Below are positions 259 through 8,972 of a stretch of DNA of 64,000 bases, one piece after another (within the stretch, counting starts at the first letter, position 1; every line of letters begins with the position of its first letter). A program made the position numbers and the translations under genes. The stretch lies in sequence record ON568341.1, one strand, 5' to 3'. A model generated the notes under the pieces. It was not told the DNA's origin. It was given only the letters and a program-made list of their open reading frames with translations, and did no database searches. The stretch comes from Escherichia phage UE-S1.

Positions 259-272
259 TATTAAAAAATAGT

Positions 273-300
273 TTGACAATAGATTATAGTACTGTATAAT
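273..300 (+). promoter_or_regulatory. sigma70-type promoter (TTGACA-16-TATAAT)
   Basis: TTGACA 273-278, TATAAT 295-300. Confidence 0.6.
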
Positions 301-317
301 AGTTTACATCAAGAAAC

Positions 318-337
318 GGGAAGTAACAGTACTTCCC
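318..337 (+). promoter_or_regulatory. 5-prime UTR stem-loop (GGGAAGTA / TACTTCCC)
   Basis: perfect 8-bp stem, 4-nt loop, between promoter and RBS; same architecture recurs upstream of many early genes. Confidence 0.5.
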
Positions 338-358
338 TACTAACAGAGAGAAAACAAA

Positions 359-571
359 ATGGCTGATATCCGCACTTTACTGAAAAATGCAAAACGAGTT
401 TTATTTTCTGATCACGAACATTTAAACAAGGATATTACTGGCGTTCGGAATATCAAAGATGTAAAACGTGTTATGGGTATCTATTGCAATATGAAACGTG
501 TTGGCACGTTCGGTAATAAATTTCTATACCAGGCGGGGGATTACAATTTTACACTGACTATCATTAACTAA
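359..571 (+). CDS. hypothetical small early protein (70 aa)
   Basis: ORF track; promoter + hairpin + A/G-rich RBS upstream. Confidence 0.6.
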   Translation: MADIRTLLKNAKRVLFSDHEHLNKDITGVRNIKDVKRVMGIYCNMKRVGTFGNKFLYQAGDYNFTLTIIN

Positions 572-590
572 AAATATTATCACAGTACTA

Positions 591-619
591 TTGACATAGT
601 TTGATAGTACTGGCATAAT
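591..619 (+). promoter_or_regulatory. sigma70-type promoter (TTGACA-17-CATAAT)
   Basis: TTGACA 591-596, CATAAT 614-619. Confidence 0.55.
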
Positions 620-653
620 AGATTTTATCAACTACACTACTAAGGAATTAAAA

Positions 654-833
654 ATGGCTATCATCGCAAAAACTGAAATCATCGGCCTGGATTCTATCAT
701 CATGACGTTTGAAGATCAAAAAGGTATGTATGTAGTTTCCTATGGTGATTATGTTCGGGAGTATGAAACAGTAGACGAAGCCTTTGAAAGTTACATTCGC
801 CAGGTGAATAAAGCATACGACGATTACCGCTAA
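654..833 (+). CDS. hypothetical small protein (59 aa)
   Basis: ATG 654 after RBS AAGGAA; not in ORF track (below 60 aa); stop TAA 831-833. Confidence 0.5.
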   Translation: MAIIAKTEIIGLDSIIMTFEDQKGMYVVSYGDYVREYETVDEAFESYIRQVNKAYDDYR

Positions 834-860
834 AATATATTACCAGTACTATTAAAGATA

Positions 861-889
861 TTGACAACGTTTGATAGTACTGGCATAAT
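861..889 (+). promoter_or_regulatory. sigma70-type promoter (TTGACA-17-CATAAT)
   Basis: near-identical copy of promoter at 591-619. Confidence 0.55.
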
Positions 890-946
890 AAGTTTTATAA
901 ACAGTAGTCAAATAGTAGTTAACTTAACAAAAGAGAGAGAAACAAA

Positions 947-1090
947 ATGATCGCACTGGATTCATTCATCGATGCAGTTCTGGCAAAAACTGGCGAGGAT
1001 CTGACCGCAGAACAATACGCAATGATCGAGCAATGCCAGCAAGACGGTAAATCGGTGAAAGATACTGTTAAGATTATCCGCAAGATGTAA
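947..1090 (+). CDS. hypothetical small protein (47 aa)
   Basis: ATG 947 after AGAGAGAGAAACAAA RBS; terminator-like hairpin follows. Confidence 0.45.
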   Translation: MIALDSFIDAVLAKTGEDLTAEQYAMIEQCQQDGKSVKDTVKIIRKM

Positions 1091-1096
1091 GATTAT

Positions 1097-1124
1097 AAGC
1101 CCATTAGTTAACGCTGGTGGGCTT
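1097..1124 (+). terminator. terminator-like hairpin (AAGCCCA / TGGGCTT)
   Basis: 7-bp stem, weak T-run. Confidence 0.3.
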
Positions 1125-1196
1125 TAATCATTTACCCTATACAATGCCAGTACTAAACCGTTTATCTCATTAGAATGCATTACAGGACGTTTAACA

Positions 1197-1394
1197 ATGA
1201 TTAGCATGAAATCAGTACAAAAACAAATAGAAACATTATCAAAAATTAAACGTAAACAGTACTCATTAGAATATAATATCAATGGTAACTATCATCTAAT
1301 GAAAGAGAATAATTTTATCGTCATTGATGAATCATTGCAAATTATTAGTATAGTACTGAAAGCATTAATTAATGATAGAAAAAGGTTAAAATAA
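1197..1394 (+). CDS. hypothetical protein (65 aa)
   Basis: ORF track; weak RBS; 1-nt overlap with next gene. Confidence 0.4.
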   Translation: MISMKSVQKQIETLSKIKRKQYSLEYNINGNYHLMKENNFIVIDESLQIISIVLKALINDRKRLK

Positions 1395-1651
1395 TGGCAG
1401 TAGGATTCGCGAAAGATGGAGCCGAGCAAGATGAGATTAACGCAGTTATTCAAGCCGCCGTTAACCACGCTAGAAAGCAAATTAACGCACAAATAGAATC
1501 ACTGATACATTGCCTCGACTGCGGCGATAAAATCCCTGAGAATCGCCGACAGGCTGTTAAGGGATGTAAGTACTGCATTAATTGCCAAGTGGATCATGAT
1601 AGTACTTTTAAAAGAGATCCGCGTAATTGTTGGCATAGATCTATGAGATAA
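1394..1651 (+). CDS. putative TraR/DksA-like C4 zinc-finger protein
   Basis: CLDCGDKIPENRRQAVKGCKYCINCQ matches the Cx2C-x17-Cx2C pattern of TraR/DksA zinc fingers. Confidence 0.5.
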   Translation: MAVGFAKDGAEQDEINAVIQAAVNHARKQINAQIESLIHCLDCGDKIPENRRQAVKGCKYCINCQVDHDSTFKRDPRNCWHRSMR

Positions 1652-1658
1652 AAAGTAA

Positions 1659-1686
1659 TTGACAGTACTGAAAGATAGTGTATAAT
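1659..1686 (+). promoter_or_regulatory. sigma70-type promoter (TTGACA-16-TATAAT)
   Basis: TTGACA 1659-1664, TATAAT 1681-1686. Confidence 0.6.
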
Positions 1687-1715
1687 GTTTTATATCTTAA
1701 CTGAGGATAGAAATC

Positions 1716-2072
1716 ATGGGAATACAACATATCACGCGGACCACTGACAATGGCGAGATCACTGGTTATCAAGTACAGGGCAAAGTAGCACAATTGCAGT
1801 ACTGGTTTGTTAAACGTGGAATCATTGCACCGGATCTTGATTATGACCGTGTAGCGTTTATTGATTCTCTTTATGTTGATCCTGATAGTCGGGGCAATGG
1901 TGAAGGTAACGAATTAATGAATGCCTTTATCGATGCCGCCGATGATTCAGATTGTATCATCTTAGAATGCGATACGGGAGAAGATAACGCCTTTAATCTT
2001 AAAGAATGGTACGAAGGATTCGGATTCGAGGTACTGATCGATAGTGAATATCCTATCATGATTTTATCATAG
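1716..2072 (+). CDS. hypothetical protein, possible GNAT-like acetyltransferase
   Basis: VDPDSRGNGEGNELMNAF resembles GNAT motif A (R-x-x-G-x-G); 118 aa. Confidence 0.45.
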   Translation: MGIQHITRTTDNGEITGYQVQGKVAQLQYWFVKRGIIAPDLDYDRVAFIDSLYVDPDSRGNGEGNELMNAFIDAADDSDCIILECDTGEDNAFNLKEWYEGFGFEVLIDSEYPIMILS

Positions 2073-2150
2073 TACTTGCATTTAGTTTTCAGTACTGTTA
2101 TAGTACTTGCATCAAGGGGAAACATCTTCCCCTACTAAGAGGAAATAAAA

Positions 2151-2339
2151 ATGGAAAACTTATCAAGTATTTTAGTACAAGATGATTTCGGTAATCCTGG
2201 AAGTGCTATCATTGTTCGGGGCAATAAAGCAACGTTTGTTATTGCTGGTGGACCCGTACAGCGTAGCATTAAAAATAATGCTGTTACCATTAATAATGTA
2301 CGCTATCGCTTAGATAAAGAATTAATTCATAAACTGTAA
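2151..2339 (+). CDS. hypothetical small early protein (62 aa)
   Basis: promoter, GGGGAA..TTCCCC hairpin and RBS upstream. Confidence 0.55.
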   Translation: MENLSSILVQDDFGNPGSAIIVRGNKATFVIAGGPVQRSIKNNAVTINNVRYRLDKELIHKL

Positions 2340-2347
2340 AAAAGTAC

Positions 2348-2375
2348 TGGACAATAGATTATAGTACTGTATAAT
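2348..2375 (+). promoter_or_regulatory. sigma70-type promoter (TGGACA-16-TATAAT)
   Basis: near-copy of promoter at 273-300. Confidence 0.55.
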
Positions 2376-2424
2376 AGTTTACATGAAGGGGAGAAATGAT
2401 TCTCCCCACTAAGAGGAAAGAAAA

Positions 2425-2637
2425 ATGCAAGGTCAACTAATCGTTCGTAAATGGTCTGATACTAACGAAAAACCGTGGGATGTACAATACATCGCCCCAA
2501 ATGGTGAATCCAGATATCAACCAGGTGTAACGCATAGTACTGAGCAATTCGCCGCCGCTCATCGCGAACGTCTGTTACAATCAATGCAGCACGGTTCCGG
2601 TGAAAAATTCATTCAGGATCATTGGCTGAAAGATTAA
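2425..2637 (+). CDS. hypothetical small early protein (70 aa)
   Basis: promoter, hairpin and RBS AAGAGGAAAG upstream. Confidence 0.6.
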   Translation: MQGQLIVRKWSDTNEKPWDVQYIAPNGESRYQPGVTHSTEQFAAAHRERLLQSMQHGSGEKFIQDHWLKD

Positions 2638-2644
2638 AAAGTAC

Positions 2645-2672
2645 TTGCACAGTACTGAATAAAGTGTATAAT
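2645..2672 (+). promoter_or_regulatory. sigma70-type promoter (TTGCAC-16-TATAAT)
   Basis: TTGCAC 2645-2650, TATAAT 2667-2672. Confidence 0.55.
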
Positions 2673-2723
2673 GTTTTATATCGGAAGGGGAATAGTTCCC
2701 CTCCTAACAAAGAGGAAAGTATA

Positions 2724-2897
2724 ATGGTCCAGGTAGAATTAACAGTACTGAAAGATCTGTTTTATCGGATTGGTACTACTGGCGAATATCCGAAGGGTGA
2801 TAATGCAAAACTTTACGTATCACTCGACTTATGGCAACGCGAACAATTAGCAACGGCCTGGCGTAAAGGCAAAGCAGATAGCGAGGTGAAAGCATGA
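2724..2897 (+). CDS. hypothetical small protein (57 aa)
   Basis: ATG 2724 after RBS; track ORF 2622-2897 would run through the promoter, so the internal start is preferred. Confidence 0.5.
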   Translation: MVQVELTVLKDLFYRIGTTGEYPKGDNAKLYVSLDLWQREQLATAWRKGKADSEVKA

Positions 2898-3043
2898 AAG
2901 AATTCTTATTTGAAGTAGTGTTTCAAGGTGTCGGTAATAACCAACTGATTCGAACAAGTGGTTATAATGTTAACCAGGCATGGAATAACATTAAACAAAT
3001 GTACCCGAACGCTATCACATATCGCAACCCGAAAGAAGTTTAA
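2894..3043 (+). CDS. hypothetical small protein (49 aa)
   Basis: ATGA overlap with upstream stop; not in track (below 60 aa). Confidence 0.4.
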   Translation: MKEFLFEVVFQGVGNNQLIRTSGYNVNQAWNNIKQMYPNAITYRNPKEV

Positions 3044-3052
3044 AAATAATTG

Positions 3053-3093
3053 AAAAAGGGATTGACTCCGGTCAGTCCCTTTGCTATTATATA
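3053..3093 (+). promoter_or_regulatory. repeated promoter-like dyad element, copy 1 (TTGACT-17-TATTAT)
   Basis: AAAAAGGGATTGACTCCGGTCAGTCCCTTTGCTATTATATA; exact copies at 6060 and 8319. Confidence 0.55.
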
Positions 3094-3191
3094 CGCATAG
3101 AAACAAATTAGCCCACCGGGTGCATAAATGTATCTATTGTTTGCTGGTGGCTAGTACTATCAAGTACTGAAAACTATTTTTAAAAAAGTAC

Positions 3192-3219
3192 TTGCAAAGT
3201 ATCACGATAAGCGTATAAT
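3192..3219 (+). promoter_or_regulatory. sigma70-type promoter (TTGCAA-16-TATAAT)
   Basis: TTGCAA 3192-3197, TATAAT 3214-3219; structured ORF-less segment downstream. Confidence 0.5.
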
Positions 3220-3307
3220 GTTTTACATCAGGACGGGGAACGAAATAAGTAACCCCGTTAAGTAGTCCAGGAGTAAGACATACGAAAAACTCCCCTGATA
3301 AAATAGT

Positions 3308-3335
3308 TTGACAATAGAAAGTAAACGAGTATAAT
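3308..3335 (+). promoter_or_regulatory. sigma70-type promoter (TTGACA-16-TATAAT)
   Basis: TTGACA 3308-3313, TATAAT 3330-3335. Confidence 0.55.
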
Positions 3336-3368
3336 ACTTACATCAACCACTGATAAGGAAACATTAAA

Positions 3369-3644
3369 ATGCGGACTTTACTTACAGCTAACGAAATCGA
3401 GCAAGTACTGACTACTAATCTGGAACAATGGAAACGTGAAGCAGATATCCAGGCGGTTCAATGCCTTAACGATAAGTTAACGCCAGATGACTTAAGCACG
3501 ATTGTTGATCCACAATTTTATGAAGATATTCACGACACGTCTTTAAGCGTCGAGGATGTACTTGATAAGCACTACATTGATACTGATTTACATGTTTACG
3601 GTCGTAAAAACTTTATCACTATTCACGACATTTACAATACTTAA
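3369..3644 (+). CDS. hypothetical early protein (91 aa)
   Basis: promoter and RBS upstream. Confidence 0.6.
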   Translation: MRTLLTANEIEQVLTTNLEQWKREADIQAVQCLNDKLTPDDLSTIVDPQFYEDIHDTSLSVEDVLDKHYIDTDLHVYGRKNFITIHDIYNT

Positions 3645-3647
3645 GTA

Positions 3648-3675
3648 TTGACAAAGTATCTTAGTACTGTATAAT
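3648..3675 (+). promoter_or_regulatory. sigma70-type promoter (TTGACA-16-TATAAT)
   Basis: TTGACA 3648-3653, TATAAT 3670-3675. Confidence 0.55.
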
Positions 3676-3731
3676 AGTTTACATCAAGCGAGGGGAATGG
3701 TTCCCCTCCTAACAAAGAGAGAGAAATAAAA

Positions 3732-4055
3732 ATGGCTATGATCCTTACCCAGAAAGTAGAACTGAAAATTGTAACCTCCTTTGACATTAAAGTTAATCGG
3801 TGGACTGATAGCCACGGCAATACTTACCACTCCTGCTACGTGTCCGCATTGATTGGTGATCGCTGGGAAGACCTGGGACACGAAACCTTTACATACGGTT
3901 ACGGCACACAAGGCGAGTACACGGGTTTAGAAATCATTAAGGAAACTGTAATAGGTTTCAACCCGAAAGAGAAAGTACTACACAGAATTGAGAAAGAGAT
4001 CAACAAAGAAATTACAGTTCGCTACTACGATGTAAAACGTAAGAAAGACATGTAA
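3732..4055 (+). CDS. hypothetical early protein (107 aa)
   Basis: promoter, GGGGAATGGTTCCCC hairpin, RBS. Confidence 0.6.
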   Translation: MAMILTQKVELKIVTSFDIKVNRWTDSHGNTYHSCYVSALIGDRWEDLGHETFTYGYGTQGEYTGLEIIKETVIGFNPKEKVLHRIEKEINKEITVRYYDVKRKKDM

Positions 4056-4077
4056 TAGAATCCATTTAAAGTACTAT

Positions 4078-4106
4078 TTGACATTGCCCAGATAGTACTT
4101 TATAAT
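4078..4106 (+). promoter_or_regulatory. sigma70-type promoter (TTGACA-17-TATAAT)
   Basis: TTGACA 4078-4083, TATAAT 4101-4106. Confidence 0.55.
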
Positions 4107-4150
4107 AGACTCTAACTTGTAGTACTAACTCAACTAATAGGATGTATACC

Positions 4151-4546
4151 ATGATTACTAAATTCTACGCTACCCGTGAAGCTGCCCGTATTGTTGCACG
4201 CGAGGAAGGAGCAGCATTTAAAGACATGGGCAAAGATGCAACGAAAGGTCAACGCTGGGCCGTACAGTTCAAAGAAATCTCTGATATTGTGAATTCACCT
4301 GAGCCAGTACTGACAGCAGCAGAACTAAAACGAGCGGATATGCTGGCGGCAATACTTGACGCACAAGATGAGTTTATCGCTGACTCTGATATCAAAGTAC
4401 AGGTAAACCACACCGCATGGACTCACGCGGATCACCTGGCAAACCTTAAGCGTCCAAGTGAACTGATTCGCAACCAGAAAGAGATCCGACATGATCGTAA
4501 GGGTAATCGTGTAACAGTATACAGTAAACGCCGCCAGGTTATCTAA
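4151..4546 (+). CDS. hypothetical protein (131 aa; alternative start 4142)
   Basis: AGGA RBS 9 nt upstream of ATG 4151; intrinsic terminator follows. Confidence 0.6.
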   Translation: MITKFYATREAARIVAREEGAAFKDMGKDATKGQRWAVQFKEISDIVNSPEPVLTAAELKRADMLAAILDAQDEFIADSDIKVQVNHTAWTHADHLANLKRPSELIRNQKEIRHDRKGNRVTVYSKRRQVI

Positions 4547-4568
4547 TAACTTGCAGTACTAACAACAC

Positions 4569-4593
4569 GGCGGGATCAGTTCCCGCCTTTTTT
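4569..4593 (+). terminator. rho-independent terminator
   Basis: GGCGGGA / TCCCGCC stem followed by TTTTTT. Confidence 0.7.
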
Positions 4594-4607
4594 ATAGGAC
4601 AAACAAA

Positions 4608-4862
4608 ATGATTAAGGTTCAACTATATAAAGATAACATCTTACGGGTACACTATAAAGCACCTCAGAGAATCATCACAAAGGCCGTACAGCTTGCTAAT
4701 GAGTTTATTAATGGTAACCTATTACCTAGGAAGTTAAGCAACGGAAAACTGCGTGTAATCGACGTGGACACTAACAACAGGATAGTAATCGAGAACACAG
4801 GAAAAATAAACCTATATGAACACCAACAATACAATAAGAAAATAAAACTAATATCACGTTGA
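4608..4862 (+). CDS. hypothetical protein (84 aa)
   Basis: RBS GGACAAACAAA upstream. Confidence 0.5.
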   Translation: MIKVQLYKDNILRVHYKAPQRIITKAVQLANEFINGNLLPRKLSNGKLRVIDVDTNNRIVIENTGKINLYEHQQYNKKIKLISR

Positions 4863-4887
4863 CAGTACTCAAATGTTTTAGTATTAT
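4859..4887 (+). promoter_or_regulatory. sigma70-type promoter (TTGACA-17-TATTAT), duplicated unit A
   Basis: 60-bp promoter/5-prime UTR block nearly identical to 5135-5191. Confidence 0.5.
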
Positions 4888-4915
4888 GTACACATACCAA
4901 CACGGGAGAAACAAA

Positions 4916-5134
4916 ATGAAATTATCTAAAATCGAAAAGAAAACTATTGATGAAGCAGTTAAGCACGGTTATACCTTTCGTAATGATTCACATTTTACCA
5001 ATTTTCAACAGGGGTATCGTACTATTAAAAAACTAATTGACAAAGGTTTATTAGTTGAAGTCAATAATGGGAACGGTATCGAGTATCAGCCAACCCAAGA
5101 CGCATTATCTTTAAAGAAATATAATATTATCTAA
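4916..5134 (+). CDS. hypothetical protein (72 aa)
   Basis: ATG 4916 after GGGAGAAACAAA RBS; track ORF from 4859 includes the promoter. Confidence 0.55.
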   Translation: MKLSKIEKKTIDEAVKHGYTFRNDSHFTNFQQGYRTIKKLIDKGLLVEVNNGNGIEYQPTQDALSLKKYNII

Positions 5135-5163
5135 TTGACAGTACTCAAATGTTTTAGTACTAT
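5135..5163 (+). promoter_or_regulatory. sigma70-type promoter (TTGACA-17-TACTAT), duplicated unit B
   Basis: copy of 4859-4887 block. Confidence 0.5.
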
Positions 5164-5191
5164 ATGTACATACCAACACGGGGGAAACAAA

Positions 5192-5434
5192 ATGATTACT
5201 TTAGAAAAACGTATCAAAGAAACTACATCGCTGGTGGAACTGTTAACAGTACTCAAATGTAAAACAACACCATTTAGCACGCCGGACTTTATTAATATGG
5301 TTGATGTTAATGGTCGCTATCGTATCACGGTCGAACAAGGAGCGGCGAAAGTATTCAGTACTAAAAACACGAAGGAAGTGATCCACGCCGTTAATGTTAA
5401 AAAAGTAGTTGCCATTGATAGTAAAGTACTGTAA
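5192..5434 (+). CDS. hypothetical protein (80 aa)
   Basis: ATG 5192 after GGGGGAAACAAA RBS. Confidence 0.55.
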   Translation: MITLEKRIKETTSLVELLTVLKCKTTPFSTPDFINMVDVNGRYRITVEQGAAKVFSTKNTKEVIHAVNVKKVVAIDSKVL

Positions 5435-5465
5435 TATAGTTTCATTAACTCAAGGAGAACATGCA

Positions 5466-6050
5466 ATGCGTAATTATACTAAATTCATCCGTACACTGTC
5501 AGAAATGGAAACCAACAAAGAGATCCTTTCAGCTTGTCGGTTAGCTGGCCTGGAGATCATCGGTGCTGGTTCTTCCCGTATAGTTTTCGCTTTAAATGAT
5601 CGGTTAGTGATTAAGGTCGCGAATTGTGATGCGGGTGTAGAACAAAATGAAACTGAATGTAAGGTATGGAATTTTTTAGACTATGACCGCCCTCAGTTGA
5701 AACAGTACTTTGCAAAGGTGCATATGCATTTATGCGATCCTGATAATATGTTTATCGTTATGGATCGGTTGAGTACTGCAAGCAAAGGTAGTGTGAAGCA
5801 CGTAAACGCGTGCAATGAATTAAAGTACAATATTAAACGTAATGCAATCGAACGCCATCACCGCTTTGCTGATGCACTACAACACGTCGATGATACATTA
5901 TCAACACTAACGATAAGAGATATCAGAAAACAGAATATCGGCCAGGATCGTAATGGCCTTATTAAAGTACTTGATTACGGTTTAACCTGCAATATCTGGA
6001 ATCAGTACTATAAAAAGCGTGATGTGGCAGCAAGTAAGGTAACACGATAA
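5466..6050 (+). CDS. putative minimal Hanks-type protein kinase-like protein
   Basis: GAGSSRIV (Gly loop), VIK (lysine), IRDIRKQNIG (catalytic loop), LDYG (DFG-like) in canonical order; RBS AAGGAGAA. Confidence 0.45.
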   Translation: MRNYTKFIRTLSEMETNKEILSACRLAGLEIIGAGSSRIVFALNDRLVIKVANCDAGVEQNETECKVWNFLDYDRPQLKQYFAKVHMHLCDPDNMFIVMDRLSTASKGSVKHVNACNELKYNIKRNAIERHHRFADALQHVDDTLSTLTIRDIRKQNIGQDRNGLIKVLDYGLTCNIWNQYYKKRDVAASKVTR

Positions 6051-6059
6051 AAAAGATTA

Positions 6060-6100
6060 AAAAAGGGATTGACTCCGGTCAGTCCCTTTGCTATTATATA
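6060..6100 (+). promoter_or_regulatory. repeated promoter-like dyad element, copy 2
   Basis: TTGACT 6069-6074, TATTAT 6092-6097. Confidence 0.55.
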
Positions 6101-6191
6101 TCCATTGAGAGATAACTCACTGACCCATAGGGTGCGGAAGTGTATCTATTATATAAGTATTCAGTACTGAAAACTATTTTTAAAAAAGTAC

Positions 6192-6219
6192 TTGCAAACT
6201 ATCTCAATGAGCGTATAAT
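6192..6219 (+). promoter_or_regulatory. sigma70-type promoter (TTGCAA-16-TATAAT)
   Basis: copy of promoter at 3192-3219. Confidence 0.55.
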
Positions 6220-6274
6220 GTTTTATATCGAGAGGGGGAAATGGTTCTCCCTAGTACTAAAAGGAATCAAGACG

Positions 6275-6496
6275 ATGACTACTATGACCTGCGTTCACGC
6301 TTCAAATCTTCTGAATGATGCAGCATTTAAAGCAGGTGAAGAATATCAATGCTATCGGGATGAAAATAAAAAAGTTTTTGTAGTTGATAATAATGGTTTC
6401 CATATTGAATTACAATCCGGCTTCACTGGTTTAAATGGTAAATCAGTATGGGGCGTACAGGATGATAAAGGTACATATCATTTTAAACGTAATTAA
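6275..6496 (+). CDS. hypothetical protein (73 aa)
   Basis: ATG 6275 after hairpin and AAAAGGAA RBS; track start 6140 lies upstream of the promoter. Confidence 0.5.
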   Translation: MTTMTCVHASNLLNDAAFKAGEEYQCYRDENKKVFVVDNNGFHIELQSGFTGLNGKSVWGVQDDKGTYHFKRN

Positions 6497-6499
6497 GTA

Positions 6500-6527
6500 T
6501 TGACAAAGTATATCAGTACTGTATAAT
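6500..6527 (+). promoter_or_regulatory. sigma70-type promoter (TTGACA-16-TATAAT)
   Basis: TTGACA 6500-6505, TATAAT 6522-6527. Confidence 0.55.
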
Positions 6528-6577
6528 AGTTTACATCAAGGGGAGAATGGTTCTCCCCACTAAAAGGAAACAAAATT

Positions 6578-6850
6578 ATGTCCAGCTACTCCGCTACTAT
6601 GATCATTAAAGATATGAACGGTAATCCTACTTCTGCTGGTGGATCATTTGGAAACATTAATTTAGATGGTCGGTTATCCATGCAATCAGCCATCGATGCA
6701 GCGAAAGAAGTTTTTAAGAATGAATGTACTGTTAGTAAGCTGGATTATATGGGTTTCGCTATCGAGAAAACTACTCGTTTTGTGAACTACAAAAATCCAC
6801 TGATGATTGATACTAACCTGAAAGCTAACGAAGTGGGGTACTTATTATGA
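6578..6850 (+). CDS. hypothetical protein (90 aa)
   Basis: promoter, hairpin, RBS. Confidence 0.6.
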   Translation: MSSYSATMIIKDMNGNPTSAGGSFGNINLDGRLSMQSAIDAAKEVFKNECTVSKLDYMGFAIEKTTRFVNYKNPLMIDTNLKANEVGYLL

Positions 6851-7038
6851 CAGTAGAAGAAGTAAAAAAAGTACTGGCAGTACTACGATATCATAATCAT
6901 TGCAAGGTGAAGAATGATCCTGATTATCTTGATTCATCCCTGGAGGAAGACACCTTGAACGCTATAAGCCATATGCAGACATTAGCAAAGCGTATGACTG
7001 AAAAGAACATGCCGGACTATATCGGAAATAAAATTTAA
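6847..7038 (+). CDS. hypothetical protein (63 aa)
   Basis: ATGA overlap with upstream gene. Confidence 0.5.
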   Translation: MTVEEVKKVLAVLRYHNHCKVKNDPDYLDSSLEEDTLNAISHMQTLAKRMTEKNMPDYIGNKI

Positions 7039-7045
7039 AAAGTAC

Positions 7046-7073
7046 TTGCATTGTAGTTAGATTAACGTATAAT
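7046..7073 (+). promoter_or_regulatory. sigma70-type promoter (TTGCAT-16-TATAAT)
   Basis: TTGCAT 7046-7051, TATAAT 7068-7073. Confidence 0.5.
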
Positions 7074-7124
7074 GTTTTATATCGAGAGGGGAAATGGTTT
7101 CCCCTCAAGTCCAGGAGATACACC

Positions 7125-7388
7125 ATGAACACTATCGAAATCACTATCAATGCACACGTATACGACAACGTAGTACTGCAAACTACTATGACCGCCAATG
7201 ATACCAGTACTTTGCGGAATACTGTTATTAGTGCTGTATGTGCCGCTATCGGTGATGTATCCCTGGAAAATTCAGAACACATCAACAACGGTTTCACTAT
7301 GTGCAAACGTGATAACGCAAAACATATCATCGTGGAAGGTTACGGCGGTGTAGAATTTAATGTTTATATGAAAAAAGTACTTGCATAA
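7125..7388 (+). CDS. hypothetical protein (87 aa)
   Basis: promoter, hairpin, RBS CAGGAGA. Confidence 0.6.
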   Translation: MNTIEITINAHVYDNVVLQTTMTANDTSTLRNTVISAVCAAIGDVSLENSEHINNGFTMCKRDNAKHIIVEGYGGVEFNVYMKKVLA

Positions 7389-7408
7389 TAACTAAAACAA
7401 AGTATAAT
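7381..7408 (+). promoter_or_regulatory. sigma70-type promoter (TTGCAT-16-TATAAT)
   Basis: overlaps 3-prime end of preceding gene. Confidence 0.5.
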
Positions 7409-7455
7409 GTTTTGCATAGGGGGAGATATCCTCCCCCACTAAAAGGAGTAATAAA

Positions 7456-7680
7456 ATGGCTAACTTTGATGAACTGATGCGGGAAGTAGCTTACCTGGCA
7501 GAAGAGAAGAAATCATTCGATTCTATCTATAACACCGCTCACCGTGATTCAGTACTGGCATGTAACCAGGATCAAAAAGATGAACTAATCGCCACCTATC
7601 ATGAAGCATGGAAGTACTACCGACAATGGGAGAAAGAAGAAAGTGAGTCTACCATTGACGGCCTCAATAATCTAATCTAA
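7456..7680 (+). CDS. hypothetical protein (74 aa)
   Basis: promoter, GGGGGAGATATCCTCCCCC hairpin, RBS. Confidence 0.6.
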   Translation: MANFDELMREVAYLAEEKKSFDSIYNTAHRDSVLACNQDQKDELIATYHEAWKYYRQWEKEESESTIDGLNNLI

Positions 7681-7699
7681 AAGTTTTATTTCAGTACTA

Positions 7700-7728
7700 T
7701 TGACATAGCTTGATAGTACTGATGTAAT
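7700..7728 (+). promoter_or_regulatory. sigma70-type promoter (TTGACA-17-TGTAAT)
   Basis: TTGACA 7700-7705. Confidence 0.5.
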
Positions 7729-7756
7729 AACTTTACTAACTACAAGGGGAAACATA

Positions 7757-8014
7757 ATGGATCAATTCACACAATATCGGGTAAATCCTCAAGCTATGGC
7801 CTACGTAGAAGACCATAAAACGTTACCAGTACTGCAACCAGTTAAAGGCCGTATCTATCGTGGCCTTGCCTGGGATACGGCCCAGGATGGATATAAAACC
7901 GTCGCCGTGGGTATGTATTGCGGTGATGGTGAATGGTTTGATCCAAATAATCCGGTATCCATTGACAGTACTGAAAAAATGAAATGGGCCGACTACATCG
8001 AAGATATTTCATAA
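7757..8014 (+). CDS. hypothetical protein (85 aa)
   Basis: promoter and RBS upstream. Confidence 0.6.
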   Translation: MDQFTQYRVNPQAMAYVEDHKTLPVLQPVKGRIYRGLAWDTAQDGYKTVAVGMYCGDGEWFDPNNPVSIDSTEKMKWADYIEDIS

Positions 8015-8021
8015 AAACTAT

Positions 8022-8049
8022 TTGACAGTACTAACCAGTAATGTATAAT
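8022..8049 (+). promoter_or_regulatory. sigma70-type promoter (TTGACA-16-TATAAT)
   Basis: TTGACA 8022-8027, TATAAT 8044-8049. Confidence 0.55.
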
Positions 8050-8104
8050 GTTTTACATAGAGCGGGGGAATAGTTCTCCCGCCAATAGTTTGGAGTAAAA
8101 CATT

Positions 8105-8305
8105 ATGTCTATCGCTATCGCCCTGGTTGAAGTACTGAAAGAAGCTAAAGCCAACCTTATCGACGTAAAGATCCAGGAACTACAAAACGGCTTAATCGGC
8201 TGTACTTGTACCGCTGGTGGAGCGGCAGACTATCGAGAACACGAATCACTCGAATCACTGGTTCGGTATCTTACCATGATCGTTGATGATTGGAGAATCA
8301 TCTAA
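8105..8305 (+). CDS. hypothetical protein (66 aa)
   Basis: promoter, hairpin, RBS. Confidence 0.55.
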   Translation: MSIAIALVEVLKEAKANLIDVKIQELQNGLIGCTCTAGGAADYREHESLESLVRYLTMIVDDWRII

Positions 8306-8318
8306 CAAAAAAGAATAA

Positions 8319-8359
8319 AAAAAGGGATTGACTCCGGTCAGTCCCTTTGCTATTATATA
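8319..8359 (+). promoter_or_regulatory. repeated promoter-like dyad element, copy 3
   Basis: TTGACT 8328-8333, TATTAT 8351-8356. Confidence 0.55.
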
Positions 8360-8468
8360 CGCATAGACAAAAACTAGCCCACAGGGTGCATAGGTGTATC
8401 CAAAATATATAGTTAATAACGGTGAGTAACTATCTGCTGGTGGAACTAAAACTATTAATAAAAAAGTA

Positions 8469-8497
8469 TTGACAAAGTATATCAGTACTGCAATAAT
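8469..8497 (+). promoter_or_regulatory. sigma70-type promoter (TTGACA-17-AATAAT)
   Basis: TTGACA 8469-8474; weaker -10. Confidence 0.45.
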
Positions 8498-8550
8498 GTA
8501 TCTCGTAGGGCGGCAATGGTGCGACGGCCCACAAAGTTAGGAGATTCACC

Positions 8551-8883
8551 ATGAGTACTTCAATCGCTATCGTTAAAGCTTTCATCCGTACTAATGTTTC
8601 CTCTGTATTCATCGACGGCCTCGACCGTAACGTAGAATACTCAATCATTATCGCACAAACGGCAAACGGTTCTCGGTACATCCTGAATGATAGTGAAGCA
8701 AATCACTACTACTTCACTAAAGCCACTGGCTTTAAACGCATCGATGCTGATGTAGTATACGCTAAGATGAATAAGCTGGTAGACAAGATTAACGCGAAAG
8801 GTACTATCGATTTACAGTACTGGACCGAAACCGATCCAGAATATGGATCTCACCGCTACCTGAATCCAGGTATCAAAATGTAA
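8551..8883 (+). CDS. hypothetical protein (110 aa)
   Basis: RBS AGGAGA upstream. Confidence 0.6.
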   Translation: MSTSIAIVKAFIRTNVSSVFIDGLDRNVEYSIIIAQTANGSRYILNDSEANHYYFTKATGFKRIDADVVYAKMNKLVDKINAKGTIDLQYWTETDPEYGSHRYLNPGIKM

Positions 8884-8890
8884 AAAGTAC

Positions 8891-8918
8891 TTGCATAGTA
8901 CTTAGATTCATGTATAAT
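8891..8918 (+). promoter_or_regulatory. sigma70-type promoter (TTGCAT-16-TATAAT)
   Basis: TTGCAT 8891-8896, TATAAT 8913-8918. Confidence 0.5.
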
Positions 8919-8972
8919 GTTTTACATAGAGAGGGGGAAATGGTTCTCCCTCCTAAATTAAGGAGTTTTATC

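What the first reader, a model, noticed from the sequence alone, without database searches (positions are those of the whole stretch)
1394..1651. TraR/DksA-like zinc-finger protein among early genes
The 85-aa ORF carries CLDCGDKIPENRRQAVKGCKYCINCQ, matching the C4 finger of DksA/TraR-family proteins that bind the RNA polymerase secondary channel. A phage-encoded copy expressed early could reprogram host transcription.
Basis: partly seen in the sequence, partly recalled or inferred. Interest (0 to 1): 0.4.

Follow-up and report, generated by a model that had tools for sequence, protein, structure and literature searches.

The report
Phage YbiI/TraR-like zinc-finger protein
An 85-residue gene in a jumbo E. 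coli phage really does encode a DksA/TraR-family zinc-finger protein (closest to E. coli YbiI) that most likely binds host RNA polymerase, but sister phages already carry this annotation, so the finding is correct and fairly ordinary.

Summary
The ORF at 1394..1651 (+), 85 aa, exists exactly as described and is a real gene under purifying selection. Profile searches place it in the DksA/TraR C4 zinc-finger family: Pfam PF01258 at 43.3 bits (cutoff 24.9) and PHROG 54 at 2.7e-18. The nearest solved relatives are E. coli YbiI (2KGO) and RNAP-bound TraR. An AlphaFold model superposes on TraR (TM 0.52/0.59) with the same layout of one long N-terminal helix, a Zn knuckle and a short C-helix.

The window comes from a PBECO4-like jumbo coliphage (Asteriusvirus). 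Near-identical genes in sister phages are already annotated "DksA-like zinc-finger protein". The gene lies in an array of small + strand genes driven by consensus sigma-70 promoters, which fits early expression.

There are three caveats:
- It belongs to the YbiI-type subfamily, not TraR proper.
- The function-critical DxxDxA tip is replaced by an invariant D8-x-x-E11 behind a 5-residue extension.
- It has an invariant C-terminal tail (RNCWHRSMR) that TraR lacks.

RNAP binding is inferred, not shown. Verdict: interpretation supported, a new member of a known kind, low to moderate interest.

The parts
1394..1651 (+). CDS of the 85-aa DksA/TraR-family (YbiI-type) C4 zinc-finger protein, stop codon included
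   Evidence: ORF. Pfam PF01258 above cutoff, PHROG_54, best NCBIfam model NF008243, PDB hits YbiI and TraR, fold match to TraR.
1406..1480 (+). Residues 5-29: predicted long N-terminal helix, the counterpart of TraR-N (residues 2-27), which enters the RNAP secondary channel
   Evidence: AlphaFold2 DSSP gives H5-29. TraR element definitions are from PMC6970531.
1415..1435 (+). Residues 8-14 (D-G-A-E-Q-D-E): variant acidic tip D8-x-x-E11-x-x-E14 in place of the canonical DxxDxA
   Evidence: In the phage clade D8 is 42/45, while E11, Q12 and E14 are 45/45. D8 and E11 lie 32 and 29 residues before the first Cys, exactly as D3 and D6 do in lambda Orf73.
1394..1408 (+). Residues 1-5 (MAVGF): conserved N-terminal extension beyond the acidic tip, absent from TraR and Orf73
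   Evidence: M1, A2 and G4 are invariant and F/Y5 is conserved in the phage clade. MAxG[FW] is shared with the bacterial YbiI clade.
1511..1585 (+). Residues 40-64: C4 zinc knuckles (C40, C43, C61, C64) enclosing I47-P48-E49-x-R51-R52, where R51/R52 are the counterparts of TraR R48/R49 (beta' rim-helix and beta'Si3 contacts)
   Evidence: C40, C43, I47, R51, R52, C61, C64 and Q65 are invariant in 65 homologs. The roles of R48/R49 are from PMC9239242.
1577..1597 (+). Residues 62-68: short predicted C-terminal helix, the counterpart of the first half of TraR-C (residues 58-73), which contacts the beta lobe-Si1
   Evidence: AlphaFold2 DSSP gives H62-68. TraR-C is defined in PMC6970531.
1613..1648 (+). 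Residues 74-85 (RDPRNCWHRSMR): basic C-terminal tail that TraR lacks, homologous to the bacterial YbiI tail YNRRGSKDSQLR
   Evidence: R74 and R77-N-C-W-H-R82 are 45/45, S83 and M84 are 44/45, and R85 is 40/45 (K in the other 5). Intermediates P0169 (NRKVWHRSMR) and P0114 link the two tail types. This segment also matches phrog_25948.
1382..1385 (+). Shine-Dalgarno-like AAGG, 8 nt upstream of the ATG
   Evidence: Read directly from the sequence.
1197..1394 (+). Upstream 65-aa ORF of unknown function whose stop overlaps the start of the TraR-like gene (TAATG); probably the same transcript
   Evidence: it is annotated in phage ph0011. No Pfam hit. Not homologous to the upstream gene in phage Merlin.
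861..889 (+). Nearest upstream sigma-70-like promoter (TTGACA-17-CATAAT with TG, 11 of 12), candidate promoter for the unit 947..1651
   Evidence: repeat family D7. The assignment to this gene is an inference.
1659..1686 (+). Perfect sigma-70 consensus promoter of the next gene (a GNAT acetyltransferase, 1716..2072); marks the 3' boundary of the unit

Best explanation
The gene encodes a small, single-helix member of the DksA/TraR family, of the YbiI subtype. It is made by a lytic jumbo coliphage that transcribes its genome with host RNA polymerase.

Proposed mechanism, by homology with TraR and lambda Orf73:
- The long N-terminal helix inserts into the channel, so that its acidic tip (D8, E11) lies next to the active site.
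- The short C-helix and the conserved basic tail contact the beta lobe-Si1 side.

[quoted passage not shown] Host promoters that form short-lived open complexes (rRNA, ribosomal protein) would be turned down. The phage's own early promoters have consensus -35 and -10 elements and A+T-rich discriminators, so they should be spared, and RNAP and resources would shift to the phage.

Shown here: gene reality, family membership, predicted fold, conservation of the RNAP-contact arginines, and the promoter context. Inferred: RNAP binding, promoter selectivity and early timing.
For: Family and fold:
- Pfam PF01258 scores 43.3 bits against a cutoff of 24.9. PHROG_54 scores 2.7e-18. The best NCBIfam models are YbiI-type NF008243 and TraR subfamily TIGR02419.
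- PDB sequence hits are YbiI 2KGO (3.4e-12) and TraR 5W1S/6N57 (about 5e-6), ungapped over residues 18-69.
- The AlphaFold2 model (pLDDT 74.6) has H5-29, Zn knuckles and H62-68. It matches RNAP-bound TraR 6n57_M at TM 0.52/0.59 and rmsd 3.3 A over 64 columns.

Contact residues:
- R51/R52 (= TraR R48/R49) and I47 are invariant in 65 homologs and P48/E49 are >=90% conserved. An IPxxRR-like element is present in 111 of 117 wider representatives that keep the C4 motif.
- D8 and E11 are spaced from the first Cys exactly as D3 and D6 are in lambda Orf73.

Precedent:
[quoted passage not shown] P2 Orf82 and X. bovienii Gp34, whose tip motif is imperfect, showed lower activity in vitro (PMC9239242). 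P2 Orf82 reads DNVDFI.
- E. coli YbiI was reported to rescue dksA auxotrophy when over-expressed, as data not shown (PMC2613031).

Context:
- Rak2/PBECO4-like phages carry a phage sigma factor, and their relative PA5oct relies on host RNAP.
- All nine perfect sigma-70 promoters are on the + strand, against 0.2 expected, and their discriminators have only 1-3 G/C in 8 nt.
Against: - The canonical DxxDxA motif, critical for TraR and DksA function, is absent. None of the 65 close homologs has it, and only 1 of 117 wider representatives does.
- The second acidic residue is Glu. DksA D74E was reported as loss of function, although the equivalent D80E in R. sphaeroides RSP2654 retained activity (PMC4010833).
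- The bacterial YbiI clade has Val at position 11, so the acidic pair is not a family-wide feature.
[quoted passage not shown] The extra 3-5 N-terminal residues here cannot simply extend the helix in the same pose.
- The predicted C-helix is about half the length of TraR's, and the tail is modelled at low confidence.
- Scores fall below the curated NCBIfam cutoffs for both the YbiI equivalog (80.9 < 96) and the TraR subfamily (51.5 < 59.7).
- The searchable literature holds no experiment on any member of this phage clade and none on YbiI beyond a 'data not shown' remark.
- The gene is not directly preceded by one of the consensus promoter cassettes.
Confidence: 0.65

Rival explanations
1. It binds the RNAP secondary channel but does not act like TraR. 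With a Gre-like DxxE tip and a 5-residue N-terminal extension, it may act as a plug or competitor that excludes DksA and GreA/B. Alternatively it may act directly on catalysis or on the trigger loop, rather than allosterically tuning open-complex lifetime.
For: - The tip D8-x-x-E11 matches the first four positions of the Gre DxxExA motif cited in PMC9239242.
- G4, G9, E11, Q12 and E14 are invariant, and the MAVGF extension is conserved.
- TraR S2 is already 4.3 A from the Mg2+.
- DksA D74E loses regulatory function.
- Some secondary-channel binders, such as Rnk, only compete (PMC9239242).
Against: - The Ala of DxxExA is not conserved either. Position 13 is L, D, E or N.
- The fold and the rim-contact residues are TraR-like, not Gre-like.
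- YbiI reportedly complements dksA.
- There is no structural model of the complex.
Confidence: 0.2
2. It is a YbiI-type protein whose real partner is not RNA polymerase, for example another host protein or a nucleic acid bound through the basic, invariant C-terminal tail. On this reading, DksA/TraR family membership reflects only the shared Zn-knuckle scaffold.
For: - Not all C4 DksA/TraR-family proteins act like DksA (RSP0166, SMc00049; PMC9239242).
- E. coli ybiI sits in an iron-metabolism operon, and its discoverers thought it more likely to be involved in iron metabolism.
- The tail R77-R85 is at least as conserved as the finger itself.
- A Mosigvirus ORF keeps only the second CxxC and the tail.
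Against: - Homology to TraR extends well beyond the finger, to the N-helix and the invariant RNAP-contact arginines.
- The non-functional family members cited lack these features and are longer.
- The fold matches RNAP-bound TraR.
- YbiI rescued dksA auxotrophy.
Confidence: 0.1
3. It is a chance ORF or a decaying pseudogene with a fortuitous CxxC...CxxC pattern.
For: The ORF is short, and nothing else points this way.
Against: - Profile E-values range from 1e-11 to 1e-23.
- Full-length orthologs occur in 539 phage records, and 2,746 representative clusters match.
- The substitution pattern is that of purifying selection.
- The start is conserved, and an RBS is present.
Confidence: 0.01

Closest known systems
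E. coli YbiI (PDB 2KGO; NCBIfam NF008243 / PRK11019)
   Same: It is the best hit by both sequence and fold. It aligns from residue 1 and shares the N-terminal MAxG[FW]Ax[DN]DxA motif, the IPxxRR element, the C4 finger, and a conserved basic C-terminal tail ending in R.
   Different: The score of 80.9 bits is below the equivalog cutoff of 96. The phage clade has E11 and E14 where the bacterial clade has V11 and Q14. It has two more residues in the helix-to-finger linker, and its tail is PRNCWHRSMR rather than YNRRGSKDSQLR. YbiI is chromosomal and essentially uncharacterised.
F-plasmid TraR (PDB 5W1S, 6N57)
   Same: It is similar in size, with a single N-terminal helix, a Zn-knuckle globular domain and a C-helix. 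The alignment is ungapped from residue 18 to 69, and R27, C4, I-P-E, R-R, G57 and Q65 are conserved. The fold match is TM 0.52/0.59.
   Different: It has no DxxDxA motif. There are 3 extra residues before the finger, the predicted C-helix is shorter, and there is an additional 12-residue conserved tail. It scores below the TIGR02419 cutoff. TraR is encoded by a conjugative plasmid, not a lytic phage.
Phage lambda Orf73 (and P2 Orf82, VP882 Orf61, VHML Orf8)
   Same: These are phage-encoded TraR homologs shown to bind RNAP and inhibit rRNA and r-protein promoters (PMC9239242). Identity to Orf73 is 43% over residues 28-74, ungapped. The acidic pair is spaced identically from the finger. P2 Orf82 is expressed from an early promoter.
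   Different: Those proteins come from temperate phages, carry D-x-x-D at residues 3-6 and have no N-terminal extension or conserved tail. This one comes from strictly lytic jumbo and T4-like phages and has D-x-x-E behind a 5-residue extension.
DksA
   Same: It belongs to the same Pfam family (PF01258), and both bind in the secondary channel with an acidic tip and a C4 globular domain.
   Different: DksA is 151 aa, has a two-helix coiled coil, and needs ppGpp. DksA-specific models score only 12-13 bits here, and the fold match is weak (E about 1.3).
GreA/GreB tip motif (DxxExA)
   Same: The D-x-x-E spacing of the acidic pair is the same.
   Different: The fold is unrelated to the Gre factors, and the Ala is not conserved. 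This is only a motif resemblance. No cleavage function is implied or tested.

Membership tests
DksA/TraR C4-type zinc finger family (Pfam PF01258) | Profile match above Pfam's gathering threshold | tested here: met
   43.3 bits against a cutoff of 24.9, E=3.5e-11, covering residues 39-68.
DksA/TraR C4-type zinc finger family (Pfam PF01258) | Four Cys arranged as CxxC-N17-CxxC | tested here: met
   C40, C43, C61 and C64 are invariant in 65 homologs.
TraR-type regulators (functional definition of PMC9239242) | A single N-terminal helix of about 25 residues instead of a coiled coil, in a protein of about 70-90 aa | tested here: met
   The AlphaFold2 model has a helix at 5-29 in an 85-aa protein, and the fold matches TraR in 6N57.
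TraR-type regulators (functional definition of PMC9239242) | DxxDxA motif at the N-terminal tip | tested here: not met
   The sequence reads D8-G-A-E11-Q-D13. None of the 65 close homologs carries DxxDxA. The variant D-x-x-E is invariant in the phage clade and in the same register as Orf73 D3/D6. The Ala position is variable.
TraR-type regulators (functional definition of PMC9239242) | Counterparts of R48 (rim helices) and R49 (beta'Si3) in the globular domain | tested here: met
   R51 and R52 align with R48 and R49 and are invariant.
TraR-type regulators (functional definition of PMC9239242) | C-terminal helix that contacts beta Si1 (TraR residues 58-73) | tested here: inconclusive
   Only residues 62-68 are predicted helical, followed by a low-confidence conserved tail. 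Whether it contacts beta Si1 cannot be judged without a model of the complex.
TraR-type regulators (functional definition of PMC9239242) | Direct binding to RNAP and promoter-specific regulation without ppGpp | not testable with these tools
   This needs biochemistry: Fe2+ cleavage competition and in vitro transcription.
TraR subfamily (NCBIfam TIGR02419) | Score above the curated cutoff | tested here: not met
   51.5 bits against a cutoff of 59.7.
YbiI equivalog (NCBIfam NF008243 / PRK11019) | Score above the curated equivalog cutoff | tested here: not met
   80.9 bits against a cutoff of 96, although this is the best model and aligns residues 1-73 with profile positions 1-72 of 88.
YbiI-type subfamily (as seen here's alignments) | N-terminal MAxG[FW]xx[DE]GAxQ motif and a conserved basic C-terminal tail ending ...S-x-[LM]-R | tested here: met
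   The MAVGFAKDGAEQ motif is present, and the tail RNCWHRSMR is linked to YNRRGSKDSQLR through intermediates P0169 and P0114.
DksA proper (TIGR02420 / NF033459) | Coiled-coil domain, ppGpp-contact residues, and a score above the cutoff | tested here: not met
   12-13 bits against cutoffs of 105-115. The model has a single helix, not a coiled coil.

The most novel reading that the evidence does not exclude
The lytic-phage YbiI-type clade could be a mechanistically distinct secondary-channel factor rather than a TraR equivalent. Its invariant 5-residue N-terminal extension (MAVGF, with G4 and G9) and Gre-like D-x-x-E tip would reach into or fold at the active site. That would make it a direct catalytic or trigger-loop inhibitor, or an excluder of DksA and Gre factors. 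Its invariant tail (R77-N-C-W-H-R-S-M-R85), possibly together with the phage-clade-invariant H25, would form an extra contact or metal site that TraR lacks. This would define a second functional class of small RNAP-channel regulators, shared by bacterial YbiI proteins and many T4-like and jumbo phages.
Probability: 0.2. Interest if true: 0.55.

Novelty: new member of a known kind. Interest (0 to 1): 0.25.

Why it matters
If it works as proposed, this protein is one of the tools a 350-kb lytic phage uses to pull host RNA polymerase away from ribosome synthesis and towards its own consensus promoters, without triggering the stringent response. TraR-type factors have so far been tested only for a conjugative plasmid and for temperate phages.

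The YbiI-type branch is widespread. It includes E. coli's own YbiI, 2,746 representative clusters, and the clade shared by jumbo and T4-like phages. It has no published biochemistry. Its altered tip and conserved tail make it a cheap test case for which features of secondary-channel regulators are really essential.

As a genome annotation, however, the call is routine and already present in public records.

Tried and rejected
- **Conserved gene partner.** The upstream coupled ORF and the downstream GNAT gene have no homologs next to the Merlin ortholog, so there is no conserved operon partner. The gene moves as a stand-alone module.
- **MAFFT placement of TraR's N-terminus.** introduced an arbitrary 3-residue gap there, so I did not use it. 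I relied on the ungapped HMMER and BLASTP alignments and on residue spacing instead.
- **Literature on YbiI.** The plain search was swamped by ytterbium(II) chemistry. The combined ybiI + DksA search returned only the 2009 'data not shown' remark.
- **Literature on this phage group.** The jumbo-phage comparative review does not mention DksA or TraR, and the fEgEco12 paper does not discuss the gene. No functional study of a lytic-phage DksA-like protein was found.
- **Weak Pfam hits.** The Cystatin (18.5 bits) and KDM6_GATAL hits are below their cutoffs and were rejected.
- **T-cell receptor, ribosomal protein and RPA12 hits.** These PDB sequence hits have E of 0.1 or more and are noise, or at most generic zinc-ribbon resemblance.
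- **A dedicated sigma-70 promoter directly upstream.** None was found between 1090 and 1197. TACAAT at 1141-1146 has no -35 element. I did not pursue a possible activator-dependent promoter.

Full report
**Observation**

The window has an ATG ORF at 1394..1651 on the + strand that encodes 85 aa. The quoted string CLDCGDKIPENRRQAVKGCKYCINCQ is residues 40-65. An AAGG Shine-Dalgarno lies 8 nt upstream. The ATG overlaps the stop codon of the preceding 65-aa ORF (TAATG), which suggests translational coupling.

The gene is real. Full-length orthologs with the same Met-Ala start occur in 539 phage records. Against the ortholog in Citrobacter phage Merlin (71% protein identity) there are 36 synonymous and 25 non-synonymous codon changes. 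Differences concentrate at third positions (49, against 23 and 16), the pattern expected under purifying selection.

**Source of the window**

The first 6 kb are 97.7% identical to Escherichia phage ph0011 (genus Asteriusvirus, 348 kb) and 91-96% identical to the other best-matching PBECO4-like jumbo coliphages. In those records the orthologous gene is already annotated 'DksA C4-type domain-containing protein', 'DksA-like zinc-finger protein' or 'TraR/DksA C4-type zinc finger protein'.

**Family assignment**

- Pfam PF01258 (zf-dskA_traR) matches at 43.3 bits against a gathering cutoff of 24.9, E=3.5e-11.
- PHROG_54 'DksA-like zinc-finger protein' matches at 2.7e-18 over residues 12-77.
- In NCBIfam the best model is the YbiI-type NF008243 (80.9 bits, residues 1-73, below its equivalog cutoff of 96). 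Next is the TraR subfamily TIGR02419 (51.5 bits against 59.7). DksA-proper models score only 12-13 bits.
- Among solved structures the best sequence hits are E. coli YbiI (2KGO, 3.4e-12, aligned from residue 1) and F-plasmid TraR in complex with RNAP (5W1S and 6N57, about 5e-6, ungapped over residues 18-69).
- An AlphaFold2 model built on 65 homologs (mean pLDDT 74.6) has a helix at 5-29, the Zn knuckles, a short helix at 62-68 and a low-confidence tail. Foldseek against the PDB returns YbiI (E 9.6e-6) and TraR 6n57_M (E 5.4e-4, TM 0.52/0.59, rmsd 3.3 A over 64 columns) as the only significant hits.

**Tests of the features that define a working TraR**

Gopalkrishnan et al. (PMC9239242) and Chen et al. 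(PMC6970531) define three elements.

   - The helix is present here, but the canonical motif is not. The sequence reads D8-G-A-E11-Q-D13.
   - None of the 65 close homologs has DxxDxA, and only 1 of 117 wider representatives does.
   - Within the phage clade (45 sequences at 64-96% identity), G4, G9, E11, Q12, E14 and A17 are invariant and D8 is nearly so.
   - BLASTP aligns the protein with lambda Orf73 (recovered from the lambda record) without gaps at an offset of 5. D8 and E11 lie 32 and 29 residues before the first Cys, exactly as Orf73 D3 and D6 do.
   - So a D-x-x-E variant sits in the right register, behind a conserved 5-residue extension (MAVGF).
   - There is precedent for imperfect tips. 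P2 Orf82 (D-N-V-D-F-I) still binds RNAP, and the authors suggest its imperfect motif may explain its lower in vitro activity.
   - Against this, DksA D74E was reported as loss of function, while the same change in R. sphaeroides RSP2654 was tolerated (PMC4010833).
2. *A C4 globular domain with R48 (rim helices) and R49 (beta'Si3).* Here C40, C43, C61, C64, I47, R51 and R52 are invariant and P48/E49 are >=90% conserved across all 65 homologs. R51 and R52 align with R48 and R49. This feature is met.
3. *A C-terminal helix (58-73) that contacts beta Si1.* Here only residues 62-68 are predicted helical. This feature is inconclusive.

**What is different**

The protein belongs to a YbiI-type branch.
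- An exhaustive profile search finds 2,746 representative clusters at E<=1e-3 and 329 at E<=1e-10.
- Most full-length top hits begin MAxG[WF]xxDGAxQ and end YNRRGSKDSQLR.
- The phage clade ends PRNCWHRSMR instead. R77-N-C-W-H-R82 is invariant, S83 and M84 are 44/45, and R85 is 40/45.
- Intermediates (P0169 ...NRKVWHRSMR; P0114 with a phage-like finger and the bacterial tail) show that the two tails are homologous.
- TraR, Orf73 and P2 Orf82 have no such tail.
- The only functional statement on YbiI in the searchable literature is that over-expression rescues dksA auxotrophy, given as data not shown. Its authors thought it more likely to be involved in iron metabolism (PMC2613031).

**Context**

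- The gene lies in an array of small + strand genes. The window holds nine perfect TTGACA-N16/17-TATAAT promoters, all on the + strand, against 0.2 expected by chance, and seven are in the first ~8 kb.
- Most of the small genes are preceded by a conserved cassette: an A-rich stretch, then AAAAAGTAnTTGACA, a spacer, TATAAT and GTTTTAYAT, then a G-rich RBS. The 8 nt after the -10 contain only 1-3 G/C.
- This is what an early region read by host sigma-70 holoenzyme looks like. Relatives of this phage group rely on host RNAP and carry a phage sigma factor.
- The TraR-like gene has no cassette immediately upstream. The nearest is at 861-889 (11 of 12, with TG), so it is probably the last gene of the unit 947..1651 (inference).
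- Its neighbours are a GNAT acetyltransferase (1716..2072) and a kinase-like protein (5409..6050).
- In T4-like phages the ortholog sits in the tk-rI region among unrelated small genes, and the flanking genes are not homologous to those here. The gene therefore travels alone between phage lineages.

**Mechanism proposed**

Confidence is about 0.65.
- The Zn-knuckle domain docks on the beta' rim helices through I-P-E-x-R-R.
- The N-helix enters the secondary channel and places D8 and E11 beside the active-site elements.
- The C-helix and tail contact the beta lobe-Si1 side.
- Binding shortens open-complex lifetime. Host rRNA and r-protein promoters, which have G+C-rich discriminators and intrinsically unstable open complexes (established knowledge from the DksA/TraR field), would be shut down. 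The phage's consensus promoters with A+T-rich discriminators would be spared.

Every step after 'same family and fold, contact arginines conserved' is inference.

The main rival (about 0.2) is that the protein binds the channel but acts differently, as a plug, a competitor or a direct catalytic effector. This is suggested by the extension and the Gre-like DxxE tip. A non-RNAP target is less likely (about 0.1).

**Verdict**

The assignment is already made in public annotations of sister phages, and phage TraR homologs are an established class. That makes this a new, untested member of a known kind. The modest twist is that it belongs to the uncharacterised YbiI-type branch, with a non-canonical tip and a conserved tail. 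Interest is 0.25.

**Note on sources**

Residues 15-69 are confirmed by the alignment. S2, D3, D6 and the DxxDxA motif agree with the papers.

Noticed in passing
window 262-8950 (e.g. 262-309, 1648-1695, 2337-2384, 3181-3228, 6181-6228, 8011-8058): A family of conserved intergenic promoter cassettes precedes most of the small + strand genes. Each has an A-rich stretch, then AAAAAGTAnTTGACA/TTGCA, a spacer that often contains AGTACT, then TATAAT and GTTTTAYAT, and finally a G-rich RBS. All nine perfect sigma-70 consensus sites in the window are on the + strand, against 0.2 expected.
   Followed up: partly
window 3042-3134, 6049-6141, 8308-8400: A three-copy repeat contains a perfect 12-bp-stem hairpin (AAAGGGATTGACTCCGGTCAGTCCCTTT). 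A -35-like TTGACT is embedded in the stem and is followed by a TATTAT -10. A terminator-like hairpin therefore overlaps a promoter-like site. Its function is unknown.
   Followed up: no
locus L003 1117-1281 (Escherichia phage PNJ-6, Mosigvirus): A 54-aa ORF (phrog_25948) carries only the last ~27 residues of the phage TraR/YbiI-like protein (the second CxxC and the invariant tail). They are fused to an N-terminus resembling the start of the neighbouring gene (MLYD..SEDGV). It is apparently a recombination chimera or a gene remnant.
   Followed up: partly
window 4849-4919 and 5125-5195; ORFs 4859..5134 and 5135..5434: This is a tandem duplication of a promoter and leader cassette (87% identical, 276 nt apart) in front of two small ORFs. 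The TTG starts listed for these ORFs (MTVLKCFS...) simply read through the promoter TTGACAGTACT. The true starts are probably the ATGs after AAACAAA.
   Followed up: no
window 1716-2072 and 5409-6050: The same early-type array holds a GNAT acetyltransferase (Pfam PF00583, 4.1e-9) and a weak protein-kinase-like ORF (PF00069, 17.1 bits, below its cutoff, but annotated as kinase-domain in ph0011). Both are candidate host-takeover enzymes.
   Followed up: partly
window 1097-1124: A 7-bp stem hairpin (AAGCCCA, a 14-nt loop, TGGGCTT) followed by TAATCATTT lies between ORF 947..1090 and the ORF pair 1197..1651. The terminator scan did not call it because the loop is too long. It may attenuate read-through into the TraR-like gene. 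This is read only.
   Followed up: no
window 1466-1468 (H25) and 1628-1636 (C79-W80-H81): H25, C79, W80 and H81 are all invariant in the phage clade but replaced in the bacterial YbiI clade (mostly R25, and S-K-D in the tail). The intermediate P0169 keeps H25 with W-H. The tail may pack on the N-helix, or there may be an extra metal site. This was not tested.
   Followed up: no
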